A DNA stretch of 64,000 nt, taken from sequence record CP053388.1. One strand, written 5' to 3'. Shown here piece by piece: positions 27,506 through 47,472 of this stretch. A program made the translations under genes and the position numbers. Origin of the DNA: Escherichia phage CMS-2020a. The notes beneath the pieces are model-generated. The model made no database searches. It had not been told where the DNA came from and was given only the letters and a program-made list of their open reading frames with translations. Positions within the stretch are counted from its first letter, which is position 1. Each line of letters begins with the position of its first letter.

Positions 27506-27528
27506 TAGATAACTACTTACCTATCGAG
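27506..27528. promoter_or_regulatory. motif B palindrome
   Basis: tagataactacttacctatcgag between terL and portal genes. Confidence 0.5.
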
Positions 27529-28777
27529 AACCACCAAGAATAACACGGTTTTTGACTGGATACCTACGATGTACTGGATAGCCCAATGCGTCTGCACTAT
27601 GCTCAATGCCACCTGTCTTATCCATATCTCGTGTTCCAGGCTTGTAGATGACTTTTTCCAGTGAATCAATCAAATGCTTGCACTTCGGATCGATATACAG
27701 CCGGATATCTCCAGATGCGGACATCAGCATTCGGTTAACAGCATTAACACGATCCGCAATTGGCGGGTGCTTTTTCGAATAATCGACACGTAAGAATCCC
27801 TTCTCTTTGAATATGTCTACGTCAGACTCCCCACGAGCATGTTGGCGATAAGCACCTGCCGGATCTGGAAATACCGTTACCTGTGATTTCCAGCGCCAGA
27901 AGCGTCTCTCAAGCTCATCACAAACTTCTGCCGTGTTAGAGGAAAAGAGCACCAATTCATCAATTGCCCATAGCTCACCATTTGGCTGAGGTTGCAAAAT
28001 TACTGAAGACATCGGGTCAATGTTGAAGTCCTGCCCTACCCATATAGGCAACCGAGGGTTGAACTGAAGCGGTTTTACATGCACGTTACGATCGAACGGG
28101 TAGTAAACGCGCCCGGACATGTTCTCAAAGCTGGCCAGGTACTCCTGAGCGAACGATTTGGGGTCCATATCGTTCTTAGCAGCTTCAATTTCCGCCGTAG
28201 GTACAAACGGAGAATCGGCAGTTACAAACTGCCAGCTCTTCCACTGTCCCTTTCTTTGCAGCTCTACGTTCTGGCCTATCGTCCACAGTTTGTGAAATTC
28301 CGAGAAGCCTTTTGGCGTACCAATGATCAGTGCACCGCCGCGTGTCGATGAAAGAGTAGGTCGTAACACCTTGTACCAGGTGTCAGCCTTCATATCCTGA
28401 AATTCATCAAGCACTACAAAATGCAACGCTACGCCGCGCAGAGTGTCAGGCTTATCAGCACCTTTGAGGGCGATCTCCGAACCGTTCTTCAACACGATTG
28501 TCATCGTGGTGTCGTTCTTTTTCCTAACCCACTTACGAGGCAGAACTTCCTGTAGATCGTCCCACAAAATCTGGCGAGCCATCTGGTAAGTAGGAGCGAC
28601 ATACCAGACCCTTTGCTTTTTTTCCTTTGCCGCCGCACGAATAATAGTGGAGATCGACAACCGGGATTTTCCCCAGCGTCGACCAGCACAAACAACTTTA
28701 AATCGATGCGGAGACTGGAAGACTTTCATCTGTCCAGAATGCAGTTGCACAAGACTGAGCGAGGACGGGATTGCCAT
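27521..28777 (-). CDS. terminase large subunit
   Basis: Walker A-like CAGRRWGKS, Walker B VVLDEF, C-terminal nuclease-type Asp motifs (DFNIDP, DPAG). Confidence 0.85.
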   Translation of the reverse strand: MAIPSSLSLVQLHSGQMKVFQSPHRFKVVCAGRRWGKSRLSISTIIRAAAKEKKQRVWYVAPTYQMARQILWDDLQEVLPRKWVRKKNDTTMTIVLKNGSEIALKGADKPDTLRGVALHFVVLDEFQDMKADTWYKVLRPTLSSTRGGALIIGTPKGFSEFHKLWTIGQNVELQRKGQWKSWQFVTADSPFVPTAEIEAAKNDMDPKSFAQEYLASFENMSGRVYYPFDRNVHVKPLQFNPRLPIWVGQDFNIDPMSSVILQPQPNGELWAIDELVLFSSNTAEVCDELERRFWRWKSQVTVFPDPAGAYRQHARGESDVDIFKEKGFLRVDYSKKHPPIADRVNAVNRMLMSASGDIRLYIDPKCKHLIDSLEKVIYKPGTRDMDKTGGIEHSADALGYPVHRRYPVKNRVILGGSR

Positions 28778-29409
28778 TATTCGTCCTCCCCTTCACTTCC
28801 ATCATCTGTCGCATCAAATTCGCTTAGAGCTTCTTCTTCCAACGTCTCAAGCAATTCGTCATCGATGATTTCAGGCTCGTCGTCTTCCTGACGTAATTTC
28901 GCCACCTGGGAAGGCGTAAGCTCACCAAATACCAGGTTCGGAATTTCTTCCTCGTCATTTTCCGCATGATCCATGCCCAATGCTTTGGACGAAACTTCAA
29001 AGCATTTTGCAAGGGTATTACTGGCTCTCTGTAAGCTCTTGAGAGAATCCTCAATCGCCCCTAAAGGCTTACCCTCACGTTTGGCCGTAGTGACTTCGAC
29101 CATCACCATCTGCCCCAACGCATACGCCCAGCCGTCATAACGTGTACGACGTTCTTCTATCTTTTCCGCACGGGCTTTAGCGCGAAGCTCTGCGTCAGAT
29201 TTAAGAGACTCACGAACCATCTTCCCAACAGAGTCCGCGCCTTTCTCTAATCCTCGCTTTTTGAAATGTCTGGAGAGTGTTTCACGACGAATGCCGTACT
29301 CTTCCTCCAGCTTTGAGAGTGTATATTCGCCTGACGTCCATTTGGCTTCAGCTTCGGCCCACTCCGCTGGTGTCAGGCGAGTTTTTACCTCGTCTTTTTC
29401 GACCGTCAT
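28777..29409 (-). CDS. terminase small subunit (putative, HTH plus acidic tail)
   Basis: N-terminal HTH-like region, acidic C-terminus, immediately upstream of terL. Confidence 0.6.
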   Translation of the reverse strand: MTVEKDEVKTRLTPAEWAEAEAKWTSGEYTLSKLEEEYGIRRETLSRHFKKRGLEKGADSVGKMVRESLKSDAELRAKARAEKIEERRTRYDGWAYALGQMVMVEVTTAKREGKPLGAIEDSLKSLQRASNTLAKCFEVSSKALGMDHAENDEEEIPNLVFGELTPSQVAKLRQEDDEPEIIDDELLETLEEEALSEFDATDDGSEGEDE

Positions 29410-33089: not shown

Positions 33090-34649
33090 ATGACTGTTCG
33101 GATTGTATCTAACGCAGTAAATGCGCTTATTTCTGGCGCAGATGACAAGGTAAAGCAACTGGTGCAGCAAATGTTGAGCTACGAAGTCGAGACTGGCGAC
33201 TGGAAGGGCACAAGCACGATGTTCAACTGGAGTAAAAACTCGTTCCCTGCTGGCTTTGCCAAGCCTGTAGCGGCGAACTTGAACAAGGCGGGCATCAAAT
33301 GTGTTCATATCCGCAAAGACAAAGCCCCGGCGCTTGGTAAACCAAATCCGGCGGTTAACCCATTCCCATACAATCCTGATTATGCGTATCAGGATCAGAC
33401 TGTGGAAACACTGGTTCGAGAGGGAATGATGATTGCGCAGATCGCTACTGGTGGCGGGAAATCTAACGTTGCCTGCAAAGCAGCTGCACGTATCGGTCGA
33501 ATGACATTATTTTTAACAACTCGCTCTGTTCTGATGTTTCAAATGGCCGAAAACTTCCAGAGATCCATCGACTACCGCGCCGAAAATGGCGAACCGTGGT
33601 TAAAGGGCCAAAAGGTTGGAGTCATTGGCTCGGGTGAGTTCCAGGTATCACGACATATCAACGTCGCTACAGTTCAAACTCTGGCAAGTTTCCTTGAAGA
33701 ACCACCACGCGATGCAACACCAGATAAAAAGAGCTACCATCTCAAACGTCGGGAGTTGGTGAAACGCTTCCTTTCAAGTGTGTCTCTGCTTATTCTGGAA
33801 GAAGCGCATGAGTCTTCAGGCTCTAATTTCTATGACATTGCCAGATTATGTGTGAACGCAGACTATCGTCTGGCGCTTACAGCCACGCCGTTCATGAAGG
33901 ATTCGACGGAAGCCAACATGCGCCTGATGGCGGTGGCCGGGCGAATTGAAATTAAAGTCACAGAAAAGTACCTGATTGATCGAGGCATTCTGGCAAAGCC
34001 GTACTTCCTTTATCATAAAGTTGCCTACAAGCCAGACGAGGCCAGAATCAAGGCCGAACTTGCCAACAAACACCTCAATTTTAGAGTTGGTATGAGCACC
34101 GCCTACCAAAAGGCTTATCAGTTGGGGATCGTGTATAATTTGGGACGTAACGAGGCCATAGTGCGCGAGGCATTGCTTTATAAGCAACATTCACTCAACT
34201 GCATGACTCTGGTTCGTCTTAAACGCCACGGGCAAATCCTGATGGAGATGATGAAGGAGTCAGGTCTTAAAGTTGATTTCATCTATGGGGAATCTAACCA
34301 GACGACAAGGCAAGCAAAGCTGAATAGTTTAGCGTCTGGTGAAATAGATGTTTTAATAGGCTCGACTATTCTGGATGTTGGTGTTGATGTGCCAAGCGTT
34401 GGTGCGGTCATTCTTGCTGGTGGTGGGAAAGCAGAAGTTGAAATGAGACAGCGTGTCGGTCGTGGCTTACGAGCCAAAAAAAATCAGGCAAACGTGTGTT
34501 TTATCACTGATTTCATTGACATTAGCAACAAATACCTGTTGTCTCACTCTTATGAGCGAAAACACATCATCGACACCACACCTGGCTTTGCAGAAGGTGT
34601 ATTGCCTATTGATGGAGCATTCGATTTTGGAGTTCTGAAACGAGATTAG
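33090..34649 (+). CDS. SF2 (DEAD/DEAH-type) helicase
   Basis: Walker A ATGGGKS, DExH-like LEEAHE, C-terminal helicase domain motifs. Confidence 0.8.
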   Translation: MTVRIVSNAVNALISGADDKVKQLVQQMLSYEVETGDWKGTSTMFNWSKNSFPAGFAKPVAANLNKAGIKCVHIRKDKAPALGKPNPAVNPFPYNPDYAYQDQTVETLVREGMMIAQIATGGGKSNVACKAAARIGRMTLFLTTRSVLMFQMAENFQRSIDYRAENGEPWLKGQKVGVIGSGEFQVSRHINVATVQTLASFLEEPPRDATPDKKSYHLKRRELVKRFLSSVSLLILEEAHESSGSNFYDIARLCVNADYRLALTATPFMKDSTEANMRLMAVAGRIEIKVTEKYLIDRGILAKPYFLYHKVAYKPDEARIKAELANKHLNFRVGMSTAYQKAYQLGIVYNLGRNEAIVREALLYKQHSLNCMTLVRLKRHGQILMEMMKESGLKVDFIYGESNQTTRQAKLNSLASGEIDVLIGSTILDVGVDVPSVGAVILAGGGKAEVEMRQRVGRGLRAKKNQANVCFITDFIDISNKYLLSHSYERKHIIDTTPGFAEGVLPIDGAFDFGVLKRD

Positions 34650-34651
34650 TT

Positions 34652-34930
34652 ATGAGTGAAAAGAAAACAACTTACTGTCAGGTAGCATTGTCTGATAAGG
34701 CCAATGACAAACTTGGAAAGTTTCAAGTGAAACTAAAAGAAAAAAATATCAAAATGTCTAAGGCTGAAGTCATAAATACCATTCTGGAACAATTGACAAT
34801 GGCCGACTTTGACAAGGTTATATCTTCTGTCGGGGCTTCCGCTAAGACTCGTGAGAAAATCATGCGTATCTATGAGAACTCTAATATGACAAAGGAAGAT
34901 CTCGAAACGCTATTAAGCAGATTAAAATAA
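34652..34930 (+). CDS. hypothetical protein
   Basis: 92-aa ORF, Lys-rich. Confidence 0.45.
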   Translation: MSEKKTTYCQVALSDKANDKLGKFQVKLKEKNIKMSKAEVINTILEQLTMADFDKVISSVGASAKTREKIMRIYENSNMTKEDLETLLSRLK

Positions 34931-34956
34931 TCACGCTATCAATTAGGGAGACAAAG

Positions 34957-35421
34957 ATGAAGTCTCCCATACTGTTCACTTTCTGTTCTAAAACTATCAT
35001 GAAATACTCGCTTCTCCCTCTACTAACGTTACCAGTGTTGATGCTTACCGCGTGCCAATCACGCCCAATATCAATCCATGACGCCAAACCAGCACCGCAG
35101 GCCAAAGTGTTCAAGTATCAAAGCGCAGCGCCAGCTACGTTGGTGGTAATGAGAGACACAGGTTTTGTAGGAGCTGGATGTGATGCTTCCATTTTCATCA
35201 ACGGCGAAACTGTCGCAAAACTGGCTACAGGCGAAAAAGCGACTTTCCATTTAAATGCCGGAGTATTAATTGTGGGTGCATCTCTTGAAGGTGCAGGTTT
35301 ATGTGCTCTAAACCCCGCTCGTCAAGAGCGAGAAACGACTCTGAAGAATGGAGACACAAAAGCGTTCAGGGTGTTCACCAGCAATTCTGGTGACATCGAC
35401 ATTCTGCCAACAACTCTGTGA
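34957..35421 (+). CDS. putative lipoprotein
   Basis: GGGAG RBS; signal peptide with LTAC lipobox. Confidence 0.55.
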   Translation: MKSPILFTFCSKTIMKYSLLPLLTLPVLMLTACQSRPISIHDAKPAPQAKVFKYQSAAPATLVVMRDTGFVGAGCDASIFINGETVAKLATGEKATFHLNAGVLIVGASLEGAGLCALNPARQERETTLKNGDTKAFRVFTSNSGDIDILPTTL

Positions 35422-35425
35422 TGAC

Positions 35426-35950
35426 ATGACAACCAAAGATATTACCTACGGTATCCAAGCTGAACTCTGGCCGCGAGATTACACTAACGTTGAAAAACTA
35501 CTGATGTTCTGGCGCAGAGAACAAATTCCTGTAAGGGTCACTCTCGAAGATGGCCAGGCGTTTTGCATGTACGTTTATGGCCTCATGCCATCTCGTAACA
35601 AAGTTGACCTTTGCCCAGCCCCTTTTGACAAAGAAAATCGTATAAGGCTCCCACTTGAACGCATTAGTACAATTGAATCAGGTGTGGTTGACAGTATCGC
35701 TCACGATTTCAAAGGTCGACTAACAGTTCACCCTGATTATGTCGATAATCGGCCATCACGCCGCGATTTTTTTGCAATTTGCAACCAAGCCTACAAAGCA
35801 AACAAATCTATAAGGGTGTACATGGCGGATGGCCGTGAAATTGAGGGGGTGTCAGCAGGTGCAGATGCTTGTCAGGTTACACTACGTGTCGAGAACGGTA
35901 GAAAAATAGTTGTTTTGTTCGATTGGGTTGAACGAATTTTGCCTTTTTGA
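35426..35950 (+). CDS. hypothetical protein
   Basis: ORF starting MTTKDITYG after lipoprotein stop. Confidence 0.45.
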   Translation: MTTKDITYGIQAELWPRDYTNVEKLLMFWRREQIPVRVTLEDGQAFCMYVYGLMPSRNKVDLCPAPFDKENRIRLPLERISTIESGVVDSIAHDFKGRLTVHPDYVDNRPSRRDFFAICNQAYKANKSIRVYMADGREIEGVSAGADACQVTLRVENGRKIVVLFDWVERILPF

Positions 35951-35953
35951 GTT

Positions 35954-36262
35954 ATGAAATCGATATTGTTACCACCATTATTTTTACTTTGCTCAGTTGC
36001 AGCAAATGCAATGGACTATAAGCCTGTCATTCAGTCGCTGATGAATGACGTGTGCTCAACGTCTCAGAATGTATCAGTTTGCATGTATCAATTTTCGGCA
36101 GCCGTAAAAGCAGGAAAAGCGATAGGCGAGAATGTGGAACTGTGTAAGAAAGTGGCAAATGAAGAACGGGCAATGTTGGATTGCGAATCTAGCGAGTCAT
36201 CGGCACAGTTCGTTGATGCGCTATTTGACACCAATCGTAAGGCTGTAGAGTCTGTTCAATAA
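35954..36262 (+). CDS. small secreted Cys-containing protein
   Basis: N-terminal signal peptide, several Cys. Confidence 0.5.
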   Translation: MKSILLPPLFLLCSVAANAMDYKPVIQSLMNDVCSTSQNVSVCMYQFSAAVKAGKAIGENVELCKKVANEERAMLDCESSESSAQFVDALFDTNRKAVESVQ

Positions 36263-36274
36263 ATCTATAAGGTT

Positions 36275-36306
36275 AATAACCGGCTAAGTCCGGTTATTAT
36301 TTTTCA
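36275..36306 (+). terminator. rho-independent terminator
   Basis: aataaccggctaagtccggttatt followed by T-run. Confidence 0.7.
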
Positions 36307-36453
36307 CATCACTTCTTTATATCTACAAATCAAATAACCTAAATATATATAAGGTCTAAAGCCGCAATCGATTATTTATTTAGGGAACACCTTCGACGAT
36401 CTCGCTTTTATTTCTAGGACTTTCATCCCTGCAAAAAATTTTAAAAAAAACAC

Positions 36454-36481
36454 TTGCAATCTTTTTTCGTATATCGATAAT
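36454..36481 (+). promoter_or_regulatory. sigma70-type promoter candidate for 36547-37701 cassette
   Basis: TTGCAA, 16-bp spacer, GATAAT; A/T-rich upstream tract. Confidence 0.45.
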
Positions 36482-36546
36482 TGAACTCGTCGAAAGCGAA
36501 GACGCTAACGACAATAAATTTTAAATTTACATAAGGAAAAATCATC

Positions 36547-37197
36547 ATGGCTAACATTATCATTTCTAAAAAATCCATCGTTGAAGCTGCTTCCATTGTA
36601 TCCGATGAACTGCGCGAAAAAGCAGATCTGGCAACTCAAACATACAACGAACATTATAAAAATGGTACGCACACTAAAGCAGACAAAGCAAATATGCAAG
36701 CTGCGACCACTAAACTAGCTTACTTCATCAACAACGTTGTAAACGCTGTAGAAGACGAAAAATTGTGCTCTGTTTTCTACTATGCGATTAAAGCAAGCAA
36801 ACAAGCGCCAGAAGTATTTTTTCGTGATGCAATGACTAATAGTTATTCTCTGGAAAAACTGGTTTATCTGGTTAAATCAATTAAATCTGGTAAATGCATT
36901 TATTCCATCGCTGATATGTCTGGATCTCGTGTATTCGCTTTAATCGATATGATTAACGACGAGATCGACACGTTCACCAATGGCGCTGTTTTCGATTTAA
37001 TGAATGAAGCTAAAAAAGCGTGTGAAATTAAATTGGACGCTGGCTATACTCAAGCCAACCAGTTGATCAATCTTTGCGAACGTCTCGGACTTGTTGAAAA
37101 AGTCAAAGGAGCTGGGAGCGCCAAAGCTGGTACACAGCAATATCGCTTTATCAAGAATGATTTCTACAATTATTTAGCTGATGCTTTTAAAGCGTAA
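36547..37197 (+). CDS. hypothetical protein (cassette gene 1)
   Basis: 216 aa, strong RBS TAAGGAAAAA. Confidence 0.6.
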   Translation: MANIIISKKSIVEAASIVSDELREKADLATQTYNEHYKNGTHTKADKANMQAATTKLAYFINNVVNAVEDEKLCSVFYYAIKASKQAPEVFFRDAMTNSYSLEKLVYLVKSIKSGKCIYSIADMSGSRVFALIDMINDEIDTFTNGAVFDLMNEAKKACEIKLDAGYTQANQLINLCERLGLVEKVKGAGSAKAGTQQYRFIKNDFYNYLADAFKA

Positions 37198-37245
37198 TTA
37201 ATGGAATCAAGCGCCCACAATGGGCGCTTTAAAGGAGCTTTAAAG

Positions 37246-37449
37246 ATGGTCAGCTATGACAAGATCCGCGCAGAATATCGCGCAAATTATCGCGCTTATA
37301 AACTGGAATTAATCGACGATTTGATCGCGCAACGCGACCAATTAAATTTTACGTTTTCTGATTTGCTTAACAGCAAGCGAGATTGCAAGCGCAAACGTGA
37401 ATACTTACGCTTAAGCGCATTAATCGGAAAACTTCAAAATTCTATTTAA
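37246..37449 (+). CDS. hypothetical small protein (cassette gene 2)
   Basis: AAGGAG RBS, preceded by hairpin agcgcccacaatgggcgct. Confidence 0.45.
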   Translation: MVSYDKIRAEYRANYRAYKLELIDDLIAQRDQLNFTFSDLLNSKRDCKRKREYLRLSALIGKLQNSI

Positions 37450-37470
37450 TTTTTTTTAAGGAGCTTAATC

Positions 37471-37701
37471 ATGTTTGTTCTTATCGCTGGCGTTAACGTC
37501 CATAATGAATATTATGTTAATCGCATCGCTGGGATCGCTGGTTACGCTGGGCGCGTAGTCGAGCTTATAGACGAAACGACGCGCAAAATTGACTTATTGA
37601 GCGACCAGGAGCGAAAAAAAGCAGACGTGAACGACGCTGATATATTTTTAATGTTAAAAGCGTTCGTAGAAATGGGATTTAAAATCAGTTTACACAAATA
37701 A
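37471..37701 (+). CDS. hypothetical small protein (cassette gene 3)
   Basis: AAGGAG RBS; followed by terminator. Confidence 0.45.
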   Translation: MFVLIAGVNVHNEYYVNRIAGIAGYAGRVVELIDETTRKIDLLSDQERKKADVNDADIFLMLKAFVEMGFKISLHK

Positions 37702-37705
37702 AATC

Positions 37706-37731
37706 GAGCGCCCACTATGGGCGCTTTTTTC
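37706..37731 (+). terminator. rho-independent terminator
   Basis: agcgcccactatgggcgct plus TTTTTT. Confidence 0.75.
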
Positions 37732-37751
37732 GTTTCCAATACACCTACCAT

Positions 37752-37777
37752 AACGCGCCAATGATGGCGCGTTTTTA
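37752..37777 (+). terminator. second tandem terminator hairpin
   Basis: aacgcgccaatgatggcgcgttttt. Confidence 0.6.
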
Positions 37778-38317
37778 TTGTCTTTAACTCACTCCAACAA
37801 CATAAAAATAAGCGCCAAAATAACGCCATAGACGCGCTTTTATATCCTTACCAGTACATGCCCATTACTTAACACATTAACGCGCTTAAAACGCGTTATA
37901 TTGCGCTATAGAGTATGGTTAATCATTGGCTTTTAGTCTTGCTATGTGATCCGCGCTTATTTGTCGGTGCGGATCGGTATTTTGTTTTGTTCTGTATCCG
38001 CTCGCGTATTATGTGCGCGTGATTTTTCACTTAATCACACCACTTAATCACGTATGTGATTATGCTACGAAAGAAATCTGGATGTCTCAGGTGACGAAAG
38101 TCATCATAATTTTCCCCGCTCACCTGTCCGACAACCGCTGGTTGGATTCCACCAGCTTCCCGATGTTTTTTCTACACAAAGGCGAATGCAGCCGTTTCCC
38201 GAAAAAATCCTGGCCGTTCCCCCGTCGGCTCATGAATACGTTCCTCGCCGCTTCTGAAAATTTCCCTGCGGCAGCTGGTGGCTATAGAGAAAGGGCCGTT
38301 TCTGGCCCTCTTCTCAG

Positions 38318-38800
38318 TTACACGCCATCAAGGATGTGGATGCGGTTGCTTGCGTATACATTCAGCATAAAGTTAGCGCAAAACAGTTTCCATGTATCAA
38401 CGCCAGCGGTATACGTAATGTTTTTGCATTTAATCGCATTGTTGGCGATCCGCATCCCCTGCGATACTGCTTCATCGTCGGAAAATTTGAACGACGATTG
38501 AGTTTTAATCCAGACAGAAATCTGCGTAGCGAACTCAATCAGCTTGGACTGGCAGAATCGCCCGGAGCGCACCGGAAAGACGAACGTTCCGAATCCAGAA
38601 TTTACCACATATGCTTTCTCAAATACCCTCGAGTAACGACGATTGCCAATGATGTCGCGTGCAATAATGCATTTTTCTTGTGCTGACAGTTCTACCGTCT
38701 CATTGTCGCGCCATGCACCAAGTACTCGTTTTTCAATGTCAGAGAACGTTACAGCGATATTGCCATGTGCGGGTGCGTTTACAGTAGCGATAAAATTCAT
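38318..38800 (-). CDS. hypothetical protein
   Basis: 160-aa ORF with TAAGGAA RBS and motif A upstream. Confidence 0.5.
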   Translation of the reverse strand: MNFIATVNAPAHGNIAVTFSDIEKRVLGAWRDNETVELSAQEKCIIARDIIGNRRYSRVFEKAYVVNSGFGTFVFPVRSGRFCQSKLIEFATQISVWIKTQSSFKFSDDEAVSQGMRIANNAIKCKNITYTAGVDTWKLFCANFMLNVYASNRIHILDGV

Positions 38801-40971: not shown

Positions 40972-40993
40972 AAACATGTTGTTTTCTTGATGG
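40972..40993. promoter_or_regulatory. motif A
   Basis: aaacatgttgttttcttgatgg. Confidence 0.55.
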
Positions 40994-41317
40994 TGTTATT
41001 ATCGCAATAACACACAGGCGGAAAAGGATTTTATTCCGGTGAATGTGGTTTTGGCAGTGAGTTTTCAGGTTCAGTACCGAGTACACTTTTTACATTATTC
41101 TGATTTAGTGGCCGAAAGTGGCTGGTGGCAGAGTAATCCTCTCCCCAAAAACCTACTGAAATCGATTGTGCCCCGTTGGCTGTCTGGCACAATTACGCTG
41201 TAGCTGGGCATTCAGAGGGAATCCAGCGGTAAGCAAGTCCGCCTACGTGAGCGCCTCTCTTCTTCCCGCACATTACAGGTGGGTAGCCGCAACTCTCCCT
41301 CTCGCTATACCGGTACG

Positions 41318-41475
41318 CCACCGTTCCTGAACCGGCATCGAGCCTTCTCCCGAAATCCACACAGGCAACTCGACCGTTTCTCTGAAAACCTCCAGCCGTT
41401 CCCCGAAGGCAACCCAGCCGTTTCTGTAGCGGGATGCAGCCTTTTCCCTGTATGGACCGAAGGCTGACCGTAGGG
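41318..41475. repeat. iteron-like array (6-7 degenerate ~22-bp direct repeats)
   Basis: Units cagccgtt(c/t)c..gaa at 41318, 41340, 41371, 41394, 41415, 41437. Confidence 0.6.
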
Positions 41476-42054
41476 GTGTTACGGGGGGATAAAATCAGGA
41501 GTTGAATAAATACGAAAAAGGAGGCGACACCTCTCCTTCCCTCCCCACTTATACATACCTGGCTTCTTCGCTATACATGTTGTGTTTTCTTCGTGTTTTA
41601 TCTGTCTCAACCTCTCTATAGGCGTTAATGCTCACTCCTTCCAGAACGTTCTATACGGCGACTATTTCTGTTGGTGAATTGGGTGTGTTGTTTTCTCTGT
41701 CGGTGTATGTGGTTTCGTTCGTTTTGCGGTGGTTCTTCTAGGGGGTGTTCTCGTCGTTTTGGTGATTGTTCTTCTCCATGTATGGAGTAATGGCAGGTGG
41801 GCGATTCCTTTCGTTGTTGTGTTTGAGTTGTTTGTCTGGAGTGCGTGAAGGGCTTTTGTAGTTATTCGTGTATTGGGTAATGGCGTTTCCCGTGATTGTT
41901 ATGTTTCGTGTCTTTTGGGATTGAGAGAATCCTTGTGGTTACAGGCTTCGTTGGGGTTTCAGTGATTCTGGTGTTTCTTCGCTGTTTGGGTAATGGCCTG
42001 TCGTGGGTATCGCGCGTATGAATGTTTTCGGATTGCCTGTGAAAGTTAGGTTGG

Positions 42055-42130
42055 TTGTCCGGTAGCCTGGGGAGAAGAGGTGGGTCTTTTCGGTAGCCTG
42101 CCATAAAGAGGTTGGTTGTTTTTGGGAATG
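42055..42130. repeat. ~75-bp GT-rich repeat, copy 2
   Basis: Paralogous to 38883-38955. Confidence 0.6.
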
Positions 42131-42512
42131 GCATGTGTGTTATTTAGTTGTTTTGTTATACCTGAAAATGAGTTGTTTATATGGTTGTGTAACGCAACGG
42201 GAGCGATTTTGAGCGTGTGTTTTTGTTGGTAGTGTGTTGGGTCGTCTGTGGTGAAAATTGGACGCTGTGGCGCTGTCTGCTGCGTAGAGTTACGGGTATA
42301 AGAAGTGATGTGTGAAAACGTCAATTTTTTAGACCAAATCGGGTGAAAGCGTTGACGTTTCGTTGATCTGTTATTTAGTTGTTTTCTTATTTGTATAAAC
42401 AACCATAACCTATTGATATTTAAAGATATGATTGCAGCTATGGAAGGGGAGTAGTGGCGATCAACGGATTCTTATAGAAAAGAATCAAATTGTGACCGCC
42501 ATTATCAATGTT

Positions 42513-43753: not shown

Positions 43754-45787
43754 TTACTTAACTTGGTGGCCTGGTTTAGCACCAGCATCCGGGCTTAACA
43801 GGAAGATATCTTTTCCGCCAGGGCCAGCAGCCATCACCATGCCTTCGGAGATACCGAAGCGCATTTTACGCGGTGCCAGGTTAGCCACCATAATGGTGTG
43901 ACGACCAATCAGTGCCTGTGGATCTGGATAAGCGGAACGAATGCCTGAGAAGACATTACGTTTTTCTCCGCCGAGATCCAGTGTCAGGCGCAGCAGTTTG
44001 TCAGAACCTTCGACAAACTCCGCGTTTTCAATCAGCGCCACACGCAGGTCAACTTTGGCGAAGTCGTCAAAGGTGATGGTTTCCTGAATCGGGGCGTCAG
44101 CCAGTGGGCCAGTTACCGGTGCAGCTGTGGCTTTCACTTCTTCTTTGGATGCTTCCACCAGTGCTTCCACCTGTTTCATATCGATACGGTTATACAGTGC
44201 CTTGAACGGATTCACTTTATGGCCCAGCAGCGGTTGCTGGATACCATCCCAGGTCAGTTCTGTATTCAGGAATGCTTCTGCACGTTCAGTCAGTTTCGGC
44301 AGTACCGGTTTCAGGTACGTCATCAGCACGCGGAACAGGTTAATGCCCATAGAGCAAATCGCCTGCAGATCGGCATCGCGTCCTTCCTGCTTCGCCACCA
44401 CCCACGGAGCCTGTTCATCAACATAGCGGTTAGCCAGGTCAGCCAGTGCCATGATTTCACGGATAGCTTTGCCAAATTCGCGGCTTTCCCATGCTTCGCC
44501 AATCACTTCAGCGGCATCAGTAAAGGTTTTGTACAGTTGCGGGTCAGCCAGTTCGCTTGCCAGCACGCCGTCAAAACGCTTGTTGATAAAGCCTGCATTA
44601 CGGGAGGCCAGGTTAACCACTTTGTTCACGATATCGGCATTCACGCGCTGAACGAAATCTTCCAGGTTGAGATCGATATCATCAATGCGCGAAGAGAGTT
44701 TCGCAGTGTAGTAGTAACGCAGGCTGTCGGCGTCAAAATGATTCAGCCAGGTGCTGGCTTTAATAAAGGTGCCGCGAGACTTGGACATCTTCGCACCGTT
44801 CACCGTCACATAGCCATGAACAAACAGGTTGGTCGGCTTGCGGAAGTTGCTGCCTTCTAGCATGGCAGGCCAGAACAGGCTGTGGAAGTAAACGATATCT
44901 TTGCCGATGAAGTGGTACAGCTCGGCGGTGGAGTCTTTCTTCCAGTATTCGTCGAAGCTGGTAGTGTCGCCGCGTTTGTCGCACAGATTCTTGAAGGAAC
45001 CCATGTAGCCAATCGGCGCGTCCAGCCAGACGTAGAAGTATTTGCCCGGTGCGTTCGGAATTTCAAAACCGAAGTAAGGTGCGTCACGGGAGATATCCCA
45101 CTGTTGCAGGCCAGATTCAAACCACTCCTGCATTTTGTTTGCCACCTGCTCCTGCAACGCACCGCTGCGGGTCCATGCCTGCAACATTTCGCTGAAAGAA
45201 GGCAGATCAAAGAAGAAGTGTTCGGAATCACGCATTACCGGTGTAGCGCCAGAAACTACCGATTTCGGCTCGATCAGTTCCGTCGGGCTGTATGTCGCGC
45301 CGCAGACTTCACAGTTATCGCCGTATTGATCCGGCGCTTTACATTTCGGGCATGTGCCTTTTACAAAACGGTCCGGCAGGAACATGCCTTTTTCCGGGTC
45401 GTACAGCTGAGAGATGGTGCGGTTTTTAATAAAACCGTTCTCTTTCAGGCGAGTGTAGATAAGCTCGGACAACTGACGGTTCTCTTCGCTGTGCGTCGAG
45501 TGATAGTTGTCATAGCTGATGTTAAAGCCTGCGAAATCAGTCTGATGTTCCTGACTCATTTCGCCAATCATCTGCTCCGGTGTGATACCAAGCTGCTGTG
45601 CTTTCAGCATGATCGGCGTACCGTGGGCATCGTCGGCACAGATGAAATTAACCTCGTGGCCGCGCATTCGCTGGTAACGAACCCAGACATCAGCCTGGAT
45701 GTGCTCCAGCATATGGCCGAGGTGGATTGAGCCGTTAGCGTACGGCAGCGCGCACGTCACCAGAATTTTCTTCGCGACTTGGGTCAT
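43754..45787 (-). CDS. metG: methionyl-tRNA synthetase
   Basis: Start [25 protein letters not shown] (HIGH motif), KMSKS motif, C-terminal tRNA-binding domain; matches enterobacterial MetG as recalled from memory. Confidence 0.97.
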
Positions 45788-45944
45788 AGTAGGCATTACT
45801 TCTTTGTAGTGAAAAGGGGCTTGATAGTAACAAAATGGCCTTATGTCTGCCATGTGATAACAGCATTTCTCATAAATGATTAAATGTCGTAGCTGGAGTA
45901 CACTACAAGGCGACAATTGCGCAAATTAAAATAAAGGAGACGGG

Positions 45945-47045
45945 ATGAGCGAGTCCAAATCGCCGGATGCCCTGAGAGCAATGGTAGCCGGTACGCTGGC
46001 TAATTTTCAGCACCCAACCCTGAAACACAACCTGACTACGCTTAAAGCGTTACACCATGTTGCGTTGATGGATGACACACTGCATGTCGAACTAATCATG
46101 CCTTTCGTGTGGAATAAGCCTTTTGAAGACCTGAAAGAGCAATGTAGTGGTGATCTGCTCCGTATCACTGGCGCAAAGGCTATTGACTGGAAGCTGTCGT
46201 ACAACATTGCCACGCTTAAGCGTGTCAAAAACCAACCAGGCATTAATGGCGTTAAGAACATTATCGCCGTCAGCTCAGGCAAGGGCGGCGTGGGTAAATC
46301 CTCCACGGCGGTAAACCTGGCACTGGCGTTGGCTGCTGAAGGTGCGAAAGTTGGTATTTTGGATGCCGATATCTATGGTCCATCAATTCCAACCATGCTG
46401 GGCGCGGAAAACCAACGTCCAACCTCACCTGACGGTACTCACATGGCACCTATCATGTCTCATGGCCTGGCAACCAACTCTATTGGTTATCTGGTCACCG
46501 ACGACAATGCAATGGTGTGGCGTGGACCGATGGCCAGCAAGGCGCTGATGCAGATGTTGCAGGAAACATTGTGGCCTGATCTGGACTATCTTGTTCTCGA
46601 TATGCCGCCGGGCACTGGTGATATTCAGTTGACGCTGGCGCAGAACATTCCTGTAACTGGTGCTGTTGTGGTAACTACGCCGCAAGACATCGCGCTGATC
46701 GATGCGAAGAAAGGCATTGTGATGTTCGAAAAAGTCGAAGTGCCGGTACTGGGTATCGTTGAAAACATGAGTGTGCATATTTGCAGTAACTGCGGTCATC
46801 ACGAGCCAATTTTTGGCACCGGTGGCGCACAGAAACTGGCCGAGAAATACAACACGCAGTTGTTAGGCCAAATGCCACTTCATATCTCTCTTCGTGAAGA
46901 TCTGGATAACGGAACACCAACCGTTATTAGTCGTCCAGATAGCGAATTTACAGCTATTTATCGTGACCTCGCAGATCGCGTTGCCGCCCAAATGTATTGG
47001 CAAGGTGAAGTAATACCTGGCGAAATCGCATTCCGCGCAGTGTGA
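45945..47045 (+). CDS. apbC: Fe-S cluster carrier ATPase ApbC/Mrp
   Basis: P-loop SGKGGVGKSS and CxxC motif; divergent from metG with AAGGAG RBS, the native enterobacterial arrangement. Confidence 0.95.
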   Translation: MSESKSPDALRAMVAGTLANFQHPTLKHNLTTLKALHHVALMDDTLHVELIMPFVWNKPFEDLKEQCSGDLLRITGAKAIDWKLSYNIATLKRVKNQPGINGVKNIIAVSSGKGGVGKSSTAVNLALALAAEGAKVGILDADIYGPSIPTMLGAENQRPTSPDGTHMAPIMSHGLATNSIGYLVTDDNAMVWRGPMASKALMQMLQETLWPDLDYLVLDMPPGTGDIQLTLAQNIPVTGAVVVTTPQDIALIDAKKGIVMFEKVEVPVLGIVENMSVHICSNCGHHEPIFGTGGAQKLAEKYNTQLLGQMPLHISLREDLDNGTPTVISRPDSEFTAIYRDLADRVAAQMYWQGEVIPGEIAFRAV

Positions 47046-47082: not shown

Positions 47083-47472
47083 CTACATCACGGGACAATC
47101 ATCAAACTCGCCACTTCTTGCGTCGTTGATAATGTGAGTGATCACACCAAACACGGCATTGCTGCCCGTGCATCCATCGTCATCCTTTGGCAATGCTTCC
47201 TTCTTACCGGTTCTTAAATCCTCCAGATGCTGACGTGGGTACTTCCGGTATCTTTTTACGCGATATTCCCCATCCAGAGCGCATACAAGCAGAGAACCAT
47301 CAACCGGGGTAAGTGAGGAATCGACCACCAGCAATGCACCCTGTAATATTCCCTCACGATGATGACTATCAGCTGCCCTCATGAAGTAGGTCGCTGAAGG
47401 ATGTCTAATTATCTGCTGATCAAGAGAAATACGGCTCTCAACATAATCCGCCGCAGGAGAAGGGAAGCCCAT
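47083..47472 (-). CDS. UmuD'-like S24 peptidase-family protein (N-terminally pre-truncated, HumD-like)
   Basis: GFPSPAADYVESRISLDQQIIRHPSATYF aligns with UmuD from its autocleavage-site region onward; no umuC. Confidence 0.85.
   Translation of the reverse strand: MGFPSPAADYVESRISLDQQIIRHPSATYFMRAADSHHREGILQGALLVVDSSLTPVDGSLLVCALDGEYRVKRYRKYPRQHLEDLRTGKKEALPKDDDGCTGSNAVFGVITHIINDARSGEFDDCPVM

What the first reader, a model, noticed from the sequence alone, without database searches (positions are those of the whole stretch)
37700..38070. Cluster of related GC-stem hairpins and an inverted-repeat site at the convergent junction
Between the plus-strand block and the next minus-strand block there are at least four hairpins of the form GCGCC-loop-GGCGC (37706, 37752, 37810, 37880), then direct and inverted repeats around cacttaatcacaccacttaatcacgtatgtgatt (38030-38063). 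Possible stacked bidirectional terminators, or a protein-binding site such as a packaging or replication signal.
Basis: seen in the sequence. Interest (0 to 1): 0.4.

Follow-up and report, generated by a model that had tools for sequence, protein, structure and literature searches.

The report
Terminators plus iteron-like repeats junction
The hairpins are mainly two ordinary back-to-back transcription terminators, but they sit at the edge of a 615-base gene-free stretch, conserved across a whole family of phage-plasmids, whose best-kept part (just outside the reported coordinates) looks like a protein-binding repeat array of the kind found at replication origins.

Summary
The window is an SSU5/pHCM2/pMT1-family phage-plasmid. 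The finding lies in a 615-nt gene-free gap (37702-38317) between convergent genes.

Two of the four reported hairpins (37706-26 and 37752-73) are strong, U-tailed intrinsic terminators. They are conserved in nearly all of 85 distinct relatives. The 37810 hairpin is no better than chance, and the 37880 hairpin is marginal. The CACTTAATCAC repeats and palindrome (38028-63) are real, but only the E. coli clade has them.

The gap itself is the more notable feature:
- It is 610-695 nt long in 96 loci.
- It is non-coding, has no Rfam match and no conserved RNA fold.
- It is more conserved than synonymous sites in the flanking genes.

Its most conserved part (38149-38311) holds 22-bp-phased GCCGTTTCC repeats between two inward-facing Chi sites. 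A paralogous array lies at 41316-41470. Elsewhere, phased arrays of this motif mark replication origins, for example inside lambda O-like initiator genes.

My best reading is tandem terminators insulating an iteron-type DNA element, possibly a lytic origin. No matching initiator, DnaA box or AT-rich unwinding region was found, so that function is inferred (confidence about 0.4). A pac/cos site is unlikely.

The parts
37209..37230 (+). Third copy of the GCGCC(C)A...TGGGCGC hairpin (AAGCGCCCACAATGGGCGCTT), between the 216-aa gene and the next small gene. It is an intercistronic hairpin and has no T-run.
   Evidence: (nhmmer E 1.9e-5 against the HP1-HP2 part of the profile)
37471..37701 (+). Last gene of the rightward block (76 aa, PHROG 1585, function unknown).
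37706..37731 (+). T1, an intrinsic terminator: 9-bp GC-rich stem, 3-nt loop, T6 tract.
   Evidence: present with its T-run in 84 of 85 relatives; loop CTA, TAG or TGA
37752..37778 (+). T2, a second intrinsic terminator in tandem: 9-bp stem, 4-nt loop, T5 tract.
   Evidence: 10 different loops on an invariant stem
37803..37843 (.). Conserved AAAAATAAGCGCC block with a weak, non-significant pairing. On the minus strand it gives a weak terminator-like site (37827->37811).
   Evidence: (z -0.98 and -0.71)
37878..37898 (.). TAACGCG-cttaaaa-CGCGTTA hairpin. Marginal, with no U tail in this window. In SSU5-like relatives the equivalent place is a minus-strand terminator-like site.
37947..37986 (+). 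Clade-specific strong hairpin (GATCCGC...GCGGATC) followed by a T-rich tail.
38028..38063 (.). CACTTAATCAC x2 plus the palindrome TAATCAC-N4-GTGATTA. An operator-like site found only in the E. coli clade.
38059..38088 (-). Sigma-70-like promoter match (GAGACA-18-CATAAT) whose -10 hexamer overlaps the palindrome. This is a consensus match only and is not conserved outside the clade.
   Evidence: relatives
38149..38156 (-). Chi site (CCACCAGC on the plus strand), active for RecBCD moving rightward.
38166..38183 (.). Conserved T-rich block TTTTTTCTACACAAAGGC, immediately left of the repeats.
38189..38229 (+). Iteron-like repeats r1 (GCCGTTTCC at 38191) and r2 (GGCCGTTCCCCCGTCGGC at 38212-38229, with palindromic arms), 22 bp apart.
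38247..38272 (+). Repeat r3 (GCCGCTTCT) and the nearly invariant TTTCCCTGCGGC.
38274..38281 (+). Chi site (GCTGGTGG), active for RecBCD moving leftward.
38283..38311 (-). Intrinsic terminator of the 160-aa gene (stem 38290-38311, U-tract to 38283). Its loop and 3' arm are a fourth copy of the repeat (GCCGTTTCT at 38295).
   Evidence: (-13.6 kcal/mol, z -2.6)
38318..38800 (-). First gene of the leftward block as met from the gap (160 aa, PHROG 1641). The family is confined to SSU5-like elements and the predicted fold has no PDB match.
41316..41470 (+). Paralogous array of 5-6 copies of the same repeat, with an exact 22-nt period and the same orientation. On the minus strand it also follows a terminator-like hairpin.
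   Evidence: (nhmmer E 4e-4)

Best explanation
The finding is the left and middle part of a conserved, non-coding junction of about 615 bp (37702-38317) between two convergent operons of an SSU5/pHCM2-family phage-plasmid.

Its left edge is a pair of tandem Rho-independent terminators (T1 37706-37731, T2 37752-37778). They stop rightward transcription. A third terminator (38283-38311, minus strand) stops leftward transcription from the 160-aa gene.

Between these barriers lies DNA that is kept for its sequence, not for a protein or a folded RNA. Its core (38149-38311) is a set of 4-5 iteron-like GCCGTTTCC repeats, phased at 22 bp (two helical turns) and bracketed by two inward-facing Chi sites.

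I propose that a DNA-binding protein occupies these repeats. The element would be an iteron-type cis site, most likely an origin used in the phage (lytic) replication mode or a site that titrates or controls its initiator. The terminators would keep it free of read-through transcription, and the Chi sites would halt RecBCD on either side.

What is shown: the hairpins and their conservation; the non-coding nature of the gap; sequence constraint; repeat phasing; paralogy with the second array; the Chi pair; and the use of the same phased motif at replication origins elsewhere.

What is inferred: that termination actually occurs, that a protein binds, and that replication starts here.

The CACTTAATCAC/palindrome site is a clade-specific operator-like addition, not part of the conserved core.
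For: Family assignment.

Gene-free gap at the same place:
- 610-695 nt in 94 loci.
- 664 and 618 nt in the two most divergent relatives.

Terminators.

The gap is non-coding and not a folded RNA:
- No 3-base periodicity and no conserved open frame.
- No Rfam match.
- Structure conservation index 0.1-0.4 outside T1/T2, and a positive (penalising) covariation term.

Sequence constraint: mean identity in the gap is 0.80 among SSU5-like sequences. Fourfold-degenerate sites of the flanking genes are 0.31-0.88 identical, and mostly lower than the gap identity for the same genome pair, e.g. SSU5 vs Klebsiella NC-01: gap 0.89, fourfold sites 0.72 and 0.37.

Repeats:
- The motif [AG]CC[GT]TT[CT]C[CT] occurs 13 times in the 64 kb. 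Eight of these lie in two stretches of about 110-120 nt, all on one strand, with 22-nt spacing.
- There are no further clusters in the rest of the 112-kb plasmid or in the SSU5 flank.
- The two arrays are paralogous.

Chi:
- 16 sites against 1.8 expected.
- The minus/plus pair brackets 2-3 repeats in 67 of 85 relatives, at distances of 123-125, 144-146 or 168-170 nt, so the left Chi is kept in non-homologous contexts.
- Both sites are lost in Y. pestis pMT1.

The same motif at origins elsewhere. A scan of viral contigs for CCGTTTCC-N14-CCGTTTCC returned 120 loci:
- 60 were SSU5-like and 60 were not.
- 26 of the others place the array, next to GATCTGT repeats (many also with a DnaA-box-like CCACAGG stretch upstream), in an open frame of 283-369 aa. 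The two tested are O-like initiators (PHROG 9773/345/391, E 5e-35 and 5e-59).
- Others lie next to a Rep3 initiator or a VapE primase-helicase, or inside an HTH_36 protein.
Against: - No O-like or second Rep-type initiator is detectable anywhere in the roughly 112-kb plasmid (best E 0.06). The adjacent 160-aa protein is not O-like: hhalign probability 0.3%, and no PDB fold match.
- A profile of the lambdoid origin does not hit the window's gap significantly. It gives E 0.033 only for the most divergent relative's gap. The resemblance is therefore limited to a 9-16-nt core plus the phasing.
- The gap has no perfect DnaA box. Box-like matches are near background (5 in 0.8 kb against about 2 per kb), and no 40-nt stretch exceeds 72% A+T.
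- GC skew shows no switch at this position.
- The plasmid's own RepA (Rep3_N) uses unrelated iterons (TATGCTGTCAGCGGT), about 36 kb away the short way round the circular record.
- Two arrays 3.2 kb apart are unusual for a single origin.
- There is no expression, binding or replication data.
Confidence: 0.4

Rival explanations
1. The repeats are protein-binding sites of a non-replicative kind. They could be dispersed centromere-like sites or operator arrays for a plasmid or phage regulator. Phage-plasmid N15 has scattered sopC sites that also affect gene expression (my own knowledge, not tested here).
For: - Two arrays in one orientation, phased on one face of the helix, each just downstream of a minus-strand terminator and upstream of several hundred gene-free bases.
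- The plasmid encodes a ParA-like ATPase with a small partner, and two ParB_N proteins whose sites are unknown.
- The gap has no DUE or DnaA box.
Against: - The arrays are not next to any par gene. The ParA-like gene lies about 39 kb away in the record.
- In other elements the same phased motif sits at replication genes rather than partition genes.
- No sigma-70 promoter is conserved downstream of the arrays.
Confidence: 0.2
2. The gap is an ordinary convergent terminator zone. Only T1, T2 and the leftward terminator are functional, and the rest is spacer whose similarity reflects recent shared ancestry and recombination.
For: - T1, T2 and the gene-160 terminator are by far the strongest features.
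- The central 37780-38160 part has been replaced or has diverged in the E. coli clade.
- Mosaicism is evident: gene 160 is 98-99% identical (nucleotides) to two plasmids whose gaps are only 71-82% identical.
Against: - The gap is more conserved than fourfold sites of both flanking genes in most pairs.
- Its length is held at 610-695 nt even in relatives with 51% protein identity.
- The repeat motif, its phasing and the Chi pair persist across genera, and the array is duplicated at a second locus.
Confidence: 0.15
3. The gap encodes one or more non-coding RNAs. One candidate is a leftward transcript of about 250-400 nt starting near 38052 (promoter match 38088-38059) and ending near 37803-37827. 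Another is minus-strand RNA carrying repeated AGGGAAACGG (GGA) motifs that sequester an RNA-binding protein such as CsrA.
For: - A minus-strand promoter match overlaps the palindrome.
- SSU5-like relatives have two minus-strand terminator-like sites facing T1/T2.
- The minus-strand repeats read (A/C)GGGAAACGG, and a FljA-type RNA-binding repressor gene lies 1.8 kb away.
Against: - No Rfam match.
- No conserved secondary structure or covariation on either strand.
- The promoter and the minus-strand terminators are not conserved across clades.
- The repeats lie downstream of a terminator.
- Exact 22-nt phasing points to DNA rather than RNA.
- The Y. pestis RNA-seq catalogue lists only two pMT1 sRNAs, both elsewhere (PMC3770706 Table S1).
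Confidence: 0.15
4. The gap is a recombination hot spot at a module boundary. The two inward-facing Chi sites focus RecBCD-RecA exchange on a conserved linker between the rightward and leftward gene modules.
For: - The conserved inverted Chi pair.
- Recombination breakpoints fall inside the gap.
- Chi is about 9-fold over-represented in the element.
Against: - It does not explain the phased repeats, the second array or the fixed length.
- Chi is abundant throughout the element, so a pair here could be part of general RecBCD protection.
Confidence: 0.07
5. The gap is a packaging (pac or cos) site bound by the small terminase.
For: The repeat core CGTTTCC resembles lambda cosB R sites as I recall them (a lead from memory only, not tested).
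Against: - It lies 8.7-8.9 kb from the terminase genes.
- The large terminase is of the Terminase_6N/Terminase_3 type, not GpA-type.
- There are two arrays.
- The Chi pair is oriented so that it would not protect ends made between the two sites.
- Only one or two draft contigs end in the gap.
Confidence: 0.03

Closest known systems
Tandem Rho-independent (intrinsic) terminators at a convergent gene junction
   Same: GC-rich stems of 9 bp with loops of 3-4 nt, followed directly by T5-T6 tracts, just after the last stop codon. A third terminator faces them from the other operon.
   Different: The stems share a sequence family (GCGCC(C)A / TGGGCGC) that occurs only here in 64 kb. They are kept invariant across at least eight genera. 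The most divergent relative has three such hairpins in tandem.
Lambda-type origin: iterons inside an O-like initiator gene (the class found here in about 26 viral contigs)
   Same: The core motif GCCGTTTCC, often with palindromic arms GCCG...CGGC. 22-bp phasing, 4-6 copies, and a T-rich element on the same side of the array.
   Different: - Here the array is intergenic.
- No O-like protein is encoded anywhere in the plasmid.
- There is no DnaA box and there are no GATCTGT repeats.
- Profile-level similarity is not significant.
- The array is bracketed by Chi sites and duplicated 3.2 kb away.
Rep3/P1-type plasmid iterons with a separate control array (oriR/incA)
   Same: Two arrays of direct repeats, in one orientation, phased at about two helical turns.
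   Different: The plasmid's RepA iterons are a different sequence (TATGCTGTCAGCGGT) and lie next to repA at the record start. No rep gene lies between or beside the two arrays.
Chi (GCTGGTGG) polarity switch around a bidirectional origin such as E. coli oriC (established knowledge)
   Same: Left site on the bottom strand and right site on the top strand, so RecBCD coming from either side meets an active Chi before the central segment.
   Different: This is a local pair 123-170 bp apart, not a replichore-wide bias. Chi orientation to the right of the gap is mixed, and GC skew shows no switch.

Membership tests
Intrinsic (Rho-independent) terminator | Stable GC-rich stem-loop | tested here: met
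   T1 -15.5 kcal/mol (z -3.8) and T2 -14.8 kcal/mol (z -3.7). The reported 37810 (z -1.0) and 37880 (z -1.9) hairpins do not meet it.
Intrinsic (Rho-independent) terminator | U/T tract directly 3' of the stem, on the strand of the upstream gene | tested here: met
   T6 after T1 and T5 after T2, on the plus strand, 5 and 51 nt after the stop codon at 37701.
Intrinsic (Rho-independent) terminator | Hairpin kept in relatives with free variation in the loop | tested here: met
   HP1 with its T-run is present in 84 of 85 relatives. Two GCGCC-loop-GGCGC hairpins are present in 76 of 85. There are 3 loop variants for HP1 and 10 for HP2.
Intrinsic (Rho-independent) terminator | Mapped RNA 3' ends | not testable with these tools
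   No transcript data are available for this element.
Iteron-type replication origin | Three or more direct repeats phased at about 22 bp | tested here: met
   Copies at 38191, 38213, 38247 and 38295, and at 41373/41395/41417/41439 with an exact 22-nt period. The same holds in SSU5.
Iteron-type replication origin | Initiator gene containing or adjoining the iterons | tested here: not met
   No O-like, Rep3 or HTH_36 homologue lies near either array or elsewhere (apart from the distant RepA, which has other iterons). A non-homologous initiator cannot be excluded.
Iteron-type replication origin | AT-rich unwinding element and DnaA boxes beside the iterons | tested here: not met
   No perfect DnaA box. 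Matches with one mismatch are near background. The maximum is 72% A+T in 40 nt, and that stretch is not next to the array.
Iteron-type replication origin | Sequence relationship to iterons of known origins | tested here: inconclusive
   The core and phasing are shared with arrays inside O-like genes. The origin profile gives no significant hit in the window.
Phage pac/cos site | Location at or next to the terminase genes, and conservation among relatives | tested here: not met
   The terminase genes are at 27521-29409. The 38028-63 site is clade-specific.
Phage pac/cos site | Virion DNA termini at the site | not testable with these tools
   No virion sequencing data.
Structured non-coding RNA (any Rfam family) | Match to a curated covariance model | tested here: not met
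   No hit at gathering score in the 64 kb. Only weak, sub-threshold matches driven by the terminators appear in 37400-38600.
Structured non-coding RNA (any Rfam family) | Conserved secondary structure with compensatory changes | tested here: not met
   Structure conservation index 0.1-0.4 outside T1/T2. The covariation term is a penalty on both strands.
Chi recombination hot-spot sites | Exact octamer GCTGGTGG, over-represented | tested here: met
   16 sites against 1.78 expected, and no shuffle of 100 reached 16. The pair is present in the gap in 67 of 85 relatives.
Chi recombination hot-spot sites | RecBCD-dependent activity | not testable with these tools
   Needs genetics in recBCD+ and recBCD- hosts.
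Plasmid RepA (Rep3) iterons | Same repeat as the iterons flanking repA | tested here: not met
   The RepA iterons are TATGCTGTCAGCGGT, with 11 copies after repA and more before it. This is unrelated to GCCGTTTCC.

The most novel reading that the evidence does not exclude
SSU5-family phage-plasmids carry two Chi-guarded, terminator-insulated arrays of lambdoid-type origin iterons, yet encode no recognisable initiator for them.

One reading is that the arrays are a new kind of lytic origin fired by an unrelated, still unknown initiator. The more unusual reading is that they are decoys or hitch-hiking sites. They would bind the O-like initiators of co-resident or superinfecting lambdoid phages, either titrating a competitor's replication protein or borrowing it.
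Probability: 0.12. Interest if true: 0.75.

Novelty: new variant of a known kind. Interest (0 to 1): 0.45.

Why it matters
SSU5/pHCM2/pMT1-like phage-plasmids are widespread in Escherichia, Klebsiella, Salmonella, Enterobacter and Yersinia. This gap alone matches 784 PLSDB plasmids. Some carry resistance genes, such as blaCTX-M-15 on a near-identical plasmid.

Their plasmid replicon (RepA with iterons) can be recognised. I found no description of where and how they start phage-mode replication, or how the switch is controlled. My literature searches were limited, and most of the older subscription papers are not held in the library.

A conserved, insulated iteron array gives a concrete and cheaply testable candidate for that missing cis element. 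The Chi enrichment suggests how these elements cope with RecBCD.

If the gap turns out to be only terminators plus spacer, the finding is ordinary.

Tried and rejected
- Rfam, at gathering score over the whole window and at E-value threshold over 37400-38600: nothing relevant. No tRNA or tmRNA.
- RNAalifold on both strands, over the whole gap, in sliding windows, and on the SSU5-like subgroup only: no conserved structure beyond the terminators.
- Hidden gene: no 3-base periodicity and no conserved open frame. The small ORFs annotated in SSU5, Citrobacter and Buttiauxella are not shared.
- Published sRNAs: the Y. pestis RNA-seq catalogue has two pMT1 sRNAs, both at other loci. The LF82/Cyrano paper does not mention this gap. 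Other literature searches gave nothing usable. One relevant 2026 preprint and the P1 genome paper could not be opened.
- Plasmid origin: RepA and its iterons are elsewhere and unrelated.
- Dam-site cluster of the P1 pac type: GATC density is ordinary.
- DnaA boxes and an AT-rich unwinding element: not found.
- GC skew: follows gene orientation, with no switch.
- Neighbouring proteins: no Pfam or NCBIfam family apart from the FljA-like repressor. PHROGs give 'unknown function'.
- The 160-aa protein: a good AlphaFold model (pLDDT 85), but no PDB match by sequence or by fold.
- O-like initiator in the plasmid: none found by phmmer, hmmsearch or hhalign.
- CRISPR-repeat mimicry, a XerCD site and a sigma-54 promoter: considered by eye and dropped, because the defining motifs do not fit.
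Full report
**What the window is.** The region 37300-38500 is 96-98% identical to Escherichia phages CMS-2020a, PhiR41_1 and Cyrano, and more distantly related to Salmonella phage SSU5 and Klebsiella phage-plasmids. The gap alone (37690-38330) matches 784 PLSDB plasmids from Klebsiella, Escherichia, Enterobacter, Yersinia (pMT1), Salmonella (pHCM2), Citrobacter and Cronobacter. The best match is 99.8% identical, to E. coli pEcFELIX526.1. The window is therefore part of an SSU5/pHCM2/pMT1-family phage-plasmid.

Gene order:
- Structural and terminase genes on the minus strand up to about 29.4 kb.
- ParB_N and ABC-like genes up to 33.0 kb.
- A short plus-strand block from 33090 to 37701, with a UvsW-like helicase and a FljA-like repressor.
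- Minus-strand genes from 38318 onward.

The finding lies in the 615-nt gene-free gap between the 76-aa gene (37471-37701, plus strand) and the 160-aa gene (38318-38800, minus strand).

**Checking the observation.** Two of the four reported hairpins are real and strong.
- 37706-37726: -15.5 kcal/mol, z -3.8.
- 37752-37773: -14.8 kcal/mol, z -3.7.
- Each is followed by a T-run on the plus strand.

The form GCGCC-loop-GGCGC occurs only three times in the 64 kb, against 0.49 expected. The sites are 37211, 37708 and 37755.

The '37810' hairpin is no better than chance (z -1.0). The '37880' hairpin is an ACGCG/CGCGT stem of marginal stability without a U tail. A stronger hairpin with a T-rich tail, not reported, lies at 37947-37976 (-17.3 kcal/mol) and is specific to the E. 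coli clade.

The repeats at 38028-38063 are exact. The palindrome TAATCAC-N4-GTGATTA is unique in the whole plasmid. The heptamer itself is not over-represented: 9 in the window against 9.6 in shuffles.

**Conservation.** I gathered the gap from 12 annotated plasmids and phages, 6 genome contigs and 77 viral contigs, giving 85 distinct sequences. I also gathered it from the two most divergent carriers of the 160-aa gene, at 51% and 57% protein identity.
- The gap is always present and 610-695 nt long.
- HP1 with its T-run is present in 84 of 85 sequences.
- Two GCGCC-loop-GGCGC hairpins are present in 76 of 85.
- Stems are invariant and loops vary freely, including a loop inversion CTA/TAG.
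- The most divergent relative has three such hairpins in tandem.

This is the signature of selected tandem terminators.

The CACTTAATCAC/palindrome site, by contrast, exists only in the E. coli clade. Other lineages carry GGATTCACATAATCACAT there, and several positions vary inside the clade.

**The gap is neither a gene nor a folded RNA, yet it is constrained.**
- No 3-base periodicity of substitutions and no shared open frame.
- No Rfam family reaches threshold.
- Outside T1/T2 the structure conservation index is 0.1-0.4 on both strands, and the covariation term of the consensus folds is a penalty.
- The gap is nevertheless more similar between genomes than the fourfold-degenerate sites of the flanking genes. 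For SSU5 against Klebsiella NC-01 the gap is 0.89 identical, against 0.72 and 0.37 for fourfold sites. Mean gap identity is 0.80 in the SSU5-like group.

**The conserved core.** In 38189-38303 the motif GCCGTTTCC recurs at 38191, 38213, 38247 (degenerate) and 38295. The last copy forms the loop and 3' arm of the minus-strand terminator of the 160-aa gene.

The relaxed motif [AG]CC[GT]TT[CT]C[CT] occurs 13 times in the 64 kb.
- Three copies are here.
- Five are in a second gene-poor stretch, at 41320, 41373, 41395, 41417 and 41439. All five are on the plus strand, and the last four are exactly 22 nt apart.
- There is no other cluster in the window, in the remaining 48 kb of the near-identical plasmid, or in the SSU5 flank.

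A profile of the gap finds the second array at E 4e-4, so the two arrays are paralogous. Phasing at two helical turns is preserved between E. coli and Salmonella elements while the spacers diverge. That pattern argues for recognition on DNA.

**Chi sites.** The nearly invariant 20-mer TTCCCTGCGGCAGCTGGTGG contains Chi (GCTGGTGG, 38274-38281). A second Chi lies on the other strand at 38149-38156. Chi is about 9-fold over-represented in the window: 16 sites against 1.78 expected, and no shuffle of 100 reached 16.

The pair is minus-strand on the left and plus-strand on the right. It brackets 2-3 repeats in 67 of 85 relatives, at distances of 123-125, 144-146 or 168-170 nt. The left octamer is therefore kept in non-homologous contexts. 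Cronobacter-type gaps have two such pairs. Y. pestis pMT1 has lost both sites.

From the established polarity of Chi recognition, RecBCD approaching from either side would meet an active Chi before reaching the repeats. This is the polarity seen around a bidirectional origin. It is only a local pair, though, and GC skew shows no switch.

**What phased GCCGTTTCC arrays are elsewhere.** Sixty were SSU5-like and 60 were not.

Twenty-six of the others form one class:
- Three (A)AGATCTGT repeats, then TATAGAGAWAGG, then 4-6 units of GCCGTTTCCATTCGGC at 22/44-bp phase. Many also have a DnaA-box-like CCACAGG stretch upstream, and one (L118) has a complete TTATCCACA box.
- The array lies in an open frame of 283-369 aa. 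The two I tested are 'replication initiation O-like' proteins (PHROG 9773/345/391, E 5e-35 and 5e-59).
- This is the lambda arrangement of an origin inside the O gene.

Other arrays lie just upstream of a Rep3 initiator, just downstream of a VapE primase-helicase, or inside an HTH_36 protein.

The window's r2 unit is GGCCGTTCCCCCGTCGGC, and the SSU5 form is GGCCGTTTCCCTTCGGTT. Both share the core and the palindromic arms with the O-type unit TGCCGTTTCCATTCGGCG.

**Limits of the origin reading.**
- No O-like or additional Rep protein is detectable among all six-frame ORFs of the roughly 112-kb plasmid (best E 0.06).
- The 160-aa neighbour is not O-like: hhalign probability 0.3%, and a good AlphaFold model without any PDB fold match.
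- A profile of the lambdoid origins does not hit the window's gap significantly.
- The gap has no DnaA box and no marked AT-rich segment.
- The plasmid-mode replicon is elsewhere and uses other iterons: RepA with Rep3_N at record position 1-1095, and iterons TATGCTGTCAGCGGT.

The family resemblance is therefore 'works like', not membership.

**Interpretation.**
- Shown: tandem conserved terminators on the left, a terminator on the right, and between them constrained non-coding DNA with phased, duplicated iteron-like repeats inside a conserved Chi pair.
- Inferred: a protein binds the repeats. The element is an iteron-type cis site, most likely a phage-mode origin or an initiator-control site, kept free of transcription and shielded from RecBCD (confidence about 0.4).
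- Rivals, in order of likelihood: a non-replicative protein-binding array such as a centromere-like or operator array (0.2); plain terminators plus spacer (0.15); non-coding RNA (0.15); a Chi-focused recombination linker (0.07); pac/cos (0.03).

The pac/cos idea is weak for several reasons. The terminase genes are 8.6 kb or more away, and the large terminase is of the Terminase_6N/Terminase_3 type. The Chi pair faces the wrong way to protect ends made between the two sites.

**Verdict.** As reported, the finding is largely ordinary: two terminators and a clade-specific repeat. The gap that contains it is an undescribed, family-wide non-coding element and a testable candidate function can be put forward for it.

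Noticed in passing
window 1-64000 (sites listed): Chi (GCTGGTGG) is about 9-fold over-represented: 16 sites against 1.8 expected. Ten are on the minus strand. The rest of the near-identical plasmid has more (5 in L102, 4 in L103). This suggests the element relies on Chi for protection from RecBCD.
   Followed up: partly
window 40980-42510: A second gene-poor stretch of about 1.5 kb, conserved in SSU5 and Klebsiella relatives. It holds the paralogous repeat array (41316-41470), a minus-strand terminator-like hairpin (~41515-41535), and about 850 nt that are strongly G/T-rich on the plus strand with GGGTAATGGC repeated 4-6 times (41560-42400). It is unannotated in RefSeq.
   Followed up: partly
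window 37209-37230: A copy of the T1 hairpin (same stem, loop CAA) lies between the 216-aa gene and the next small gene, directly before a Shine-Dalgarno sequence. The two small genes 37246-37701 are thus flanked by copies of one hairpin. Some relatives lack the 76-aa gene.
   Followed up: partly
window 37706-37726 and relatives (alignment A1): The loop of T1 is inverted (CTA vs TAG) in Citrobacter, Enterobacter and Buttiauxella elements while the stem is unchanged. Likewise, ATGTGATTAT at 38053-38062 is the exact reverse complement of the ATAATCACAT that relatives carry at the aligned place.
   Followed up: no
window 38318-38800 vs 37775-38160: Mosaicism. The 160-aa gene is 98-99% identical (nucleotides) to two plasmids (L006, L014) whose gaps are only 71-82% identical, so recombination breakpoints fall inside the gap.
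   Followed up: partly
window 35348-35950: A FljA-type 'repressor of phase-1 flagellin' homologue (Pfam E 2.5e-84), with a weak Hfq-like match in its C-terminal part (E 0.001, below the cut-off).
   Followed up: no
L102 1-1700 and L103 15900-16129 (NZ_CP101923, outside the window): The plasmid replicon: a 364-aa RepA (Rep3_N), unannotated in the PLSDB table, flanked by at least 15 iterons TATGCTGTCAGCGGT.
   Followed up: yes
L118 4180-4460, L127 780-1100 and about 24 further viral loci: A coherent class of lambdoid origins inside O-like genes: (A)AGATCTGT x3, then 4-6 GCCGTTTCCATTCGGC iterons, many with a DnaA-box-like stretch upstream. Only one GenBank phage record matches it, Klebsiella phage ST405-OXA48phi1.2, where the gene is annotated as hypothetical.
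   Followed up: partly
L102 24093-26486 (NZ_CP101923, outside the window): A plasmid 99.8% identical over the gap carries ISEcp1-blaCTX-M-15.
   Followed up: no
window 43754-47045: Host-like genes metG (methionyl-tRNA synthetase) and apbC sit inside the phage-plasmid, next to an S24 peptidase gene (47083-47472).
   Followed up: no
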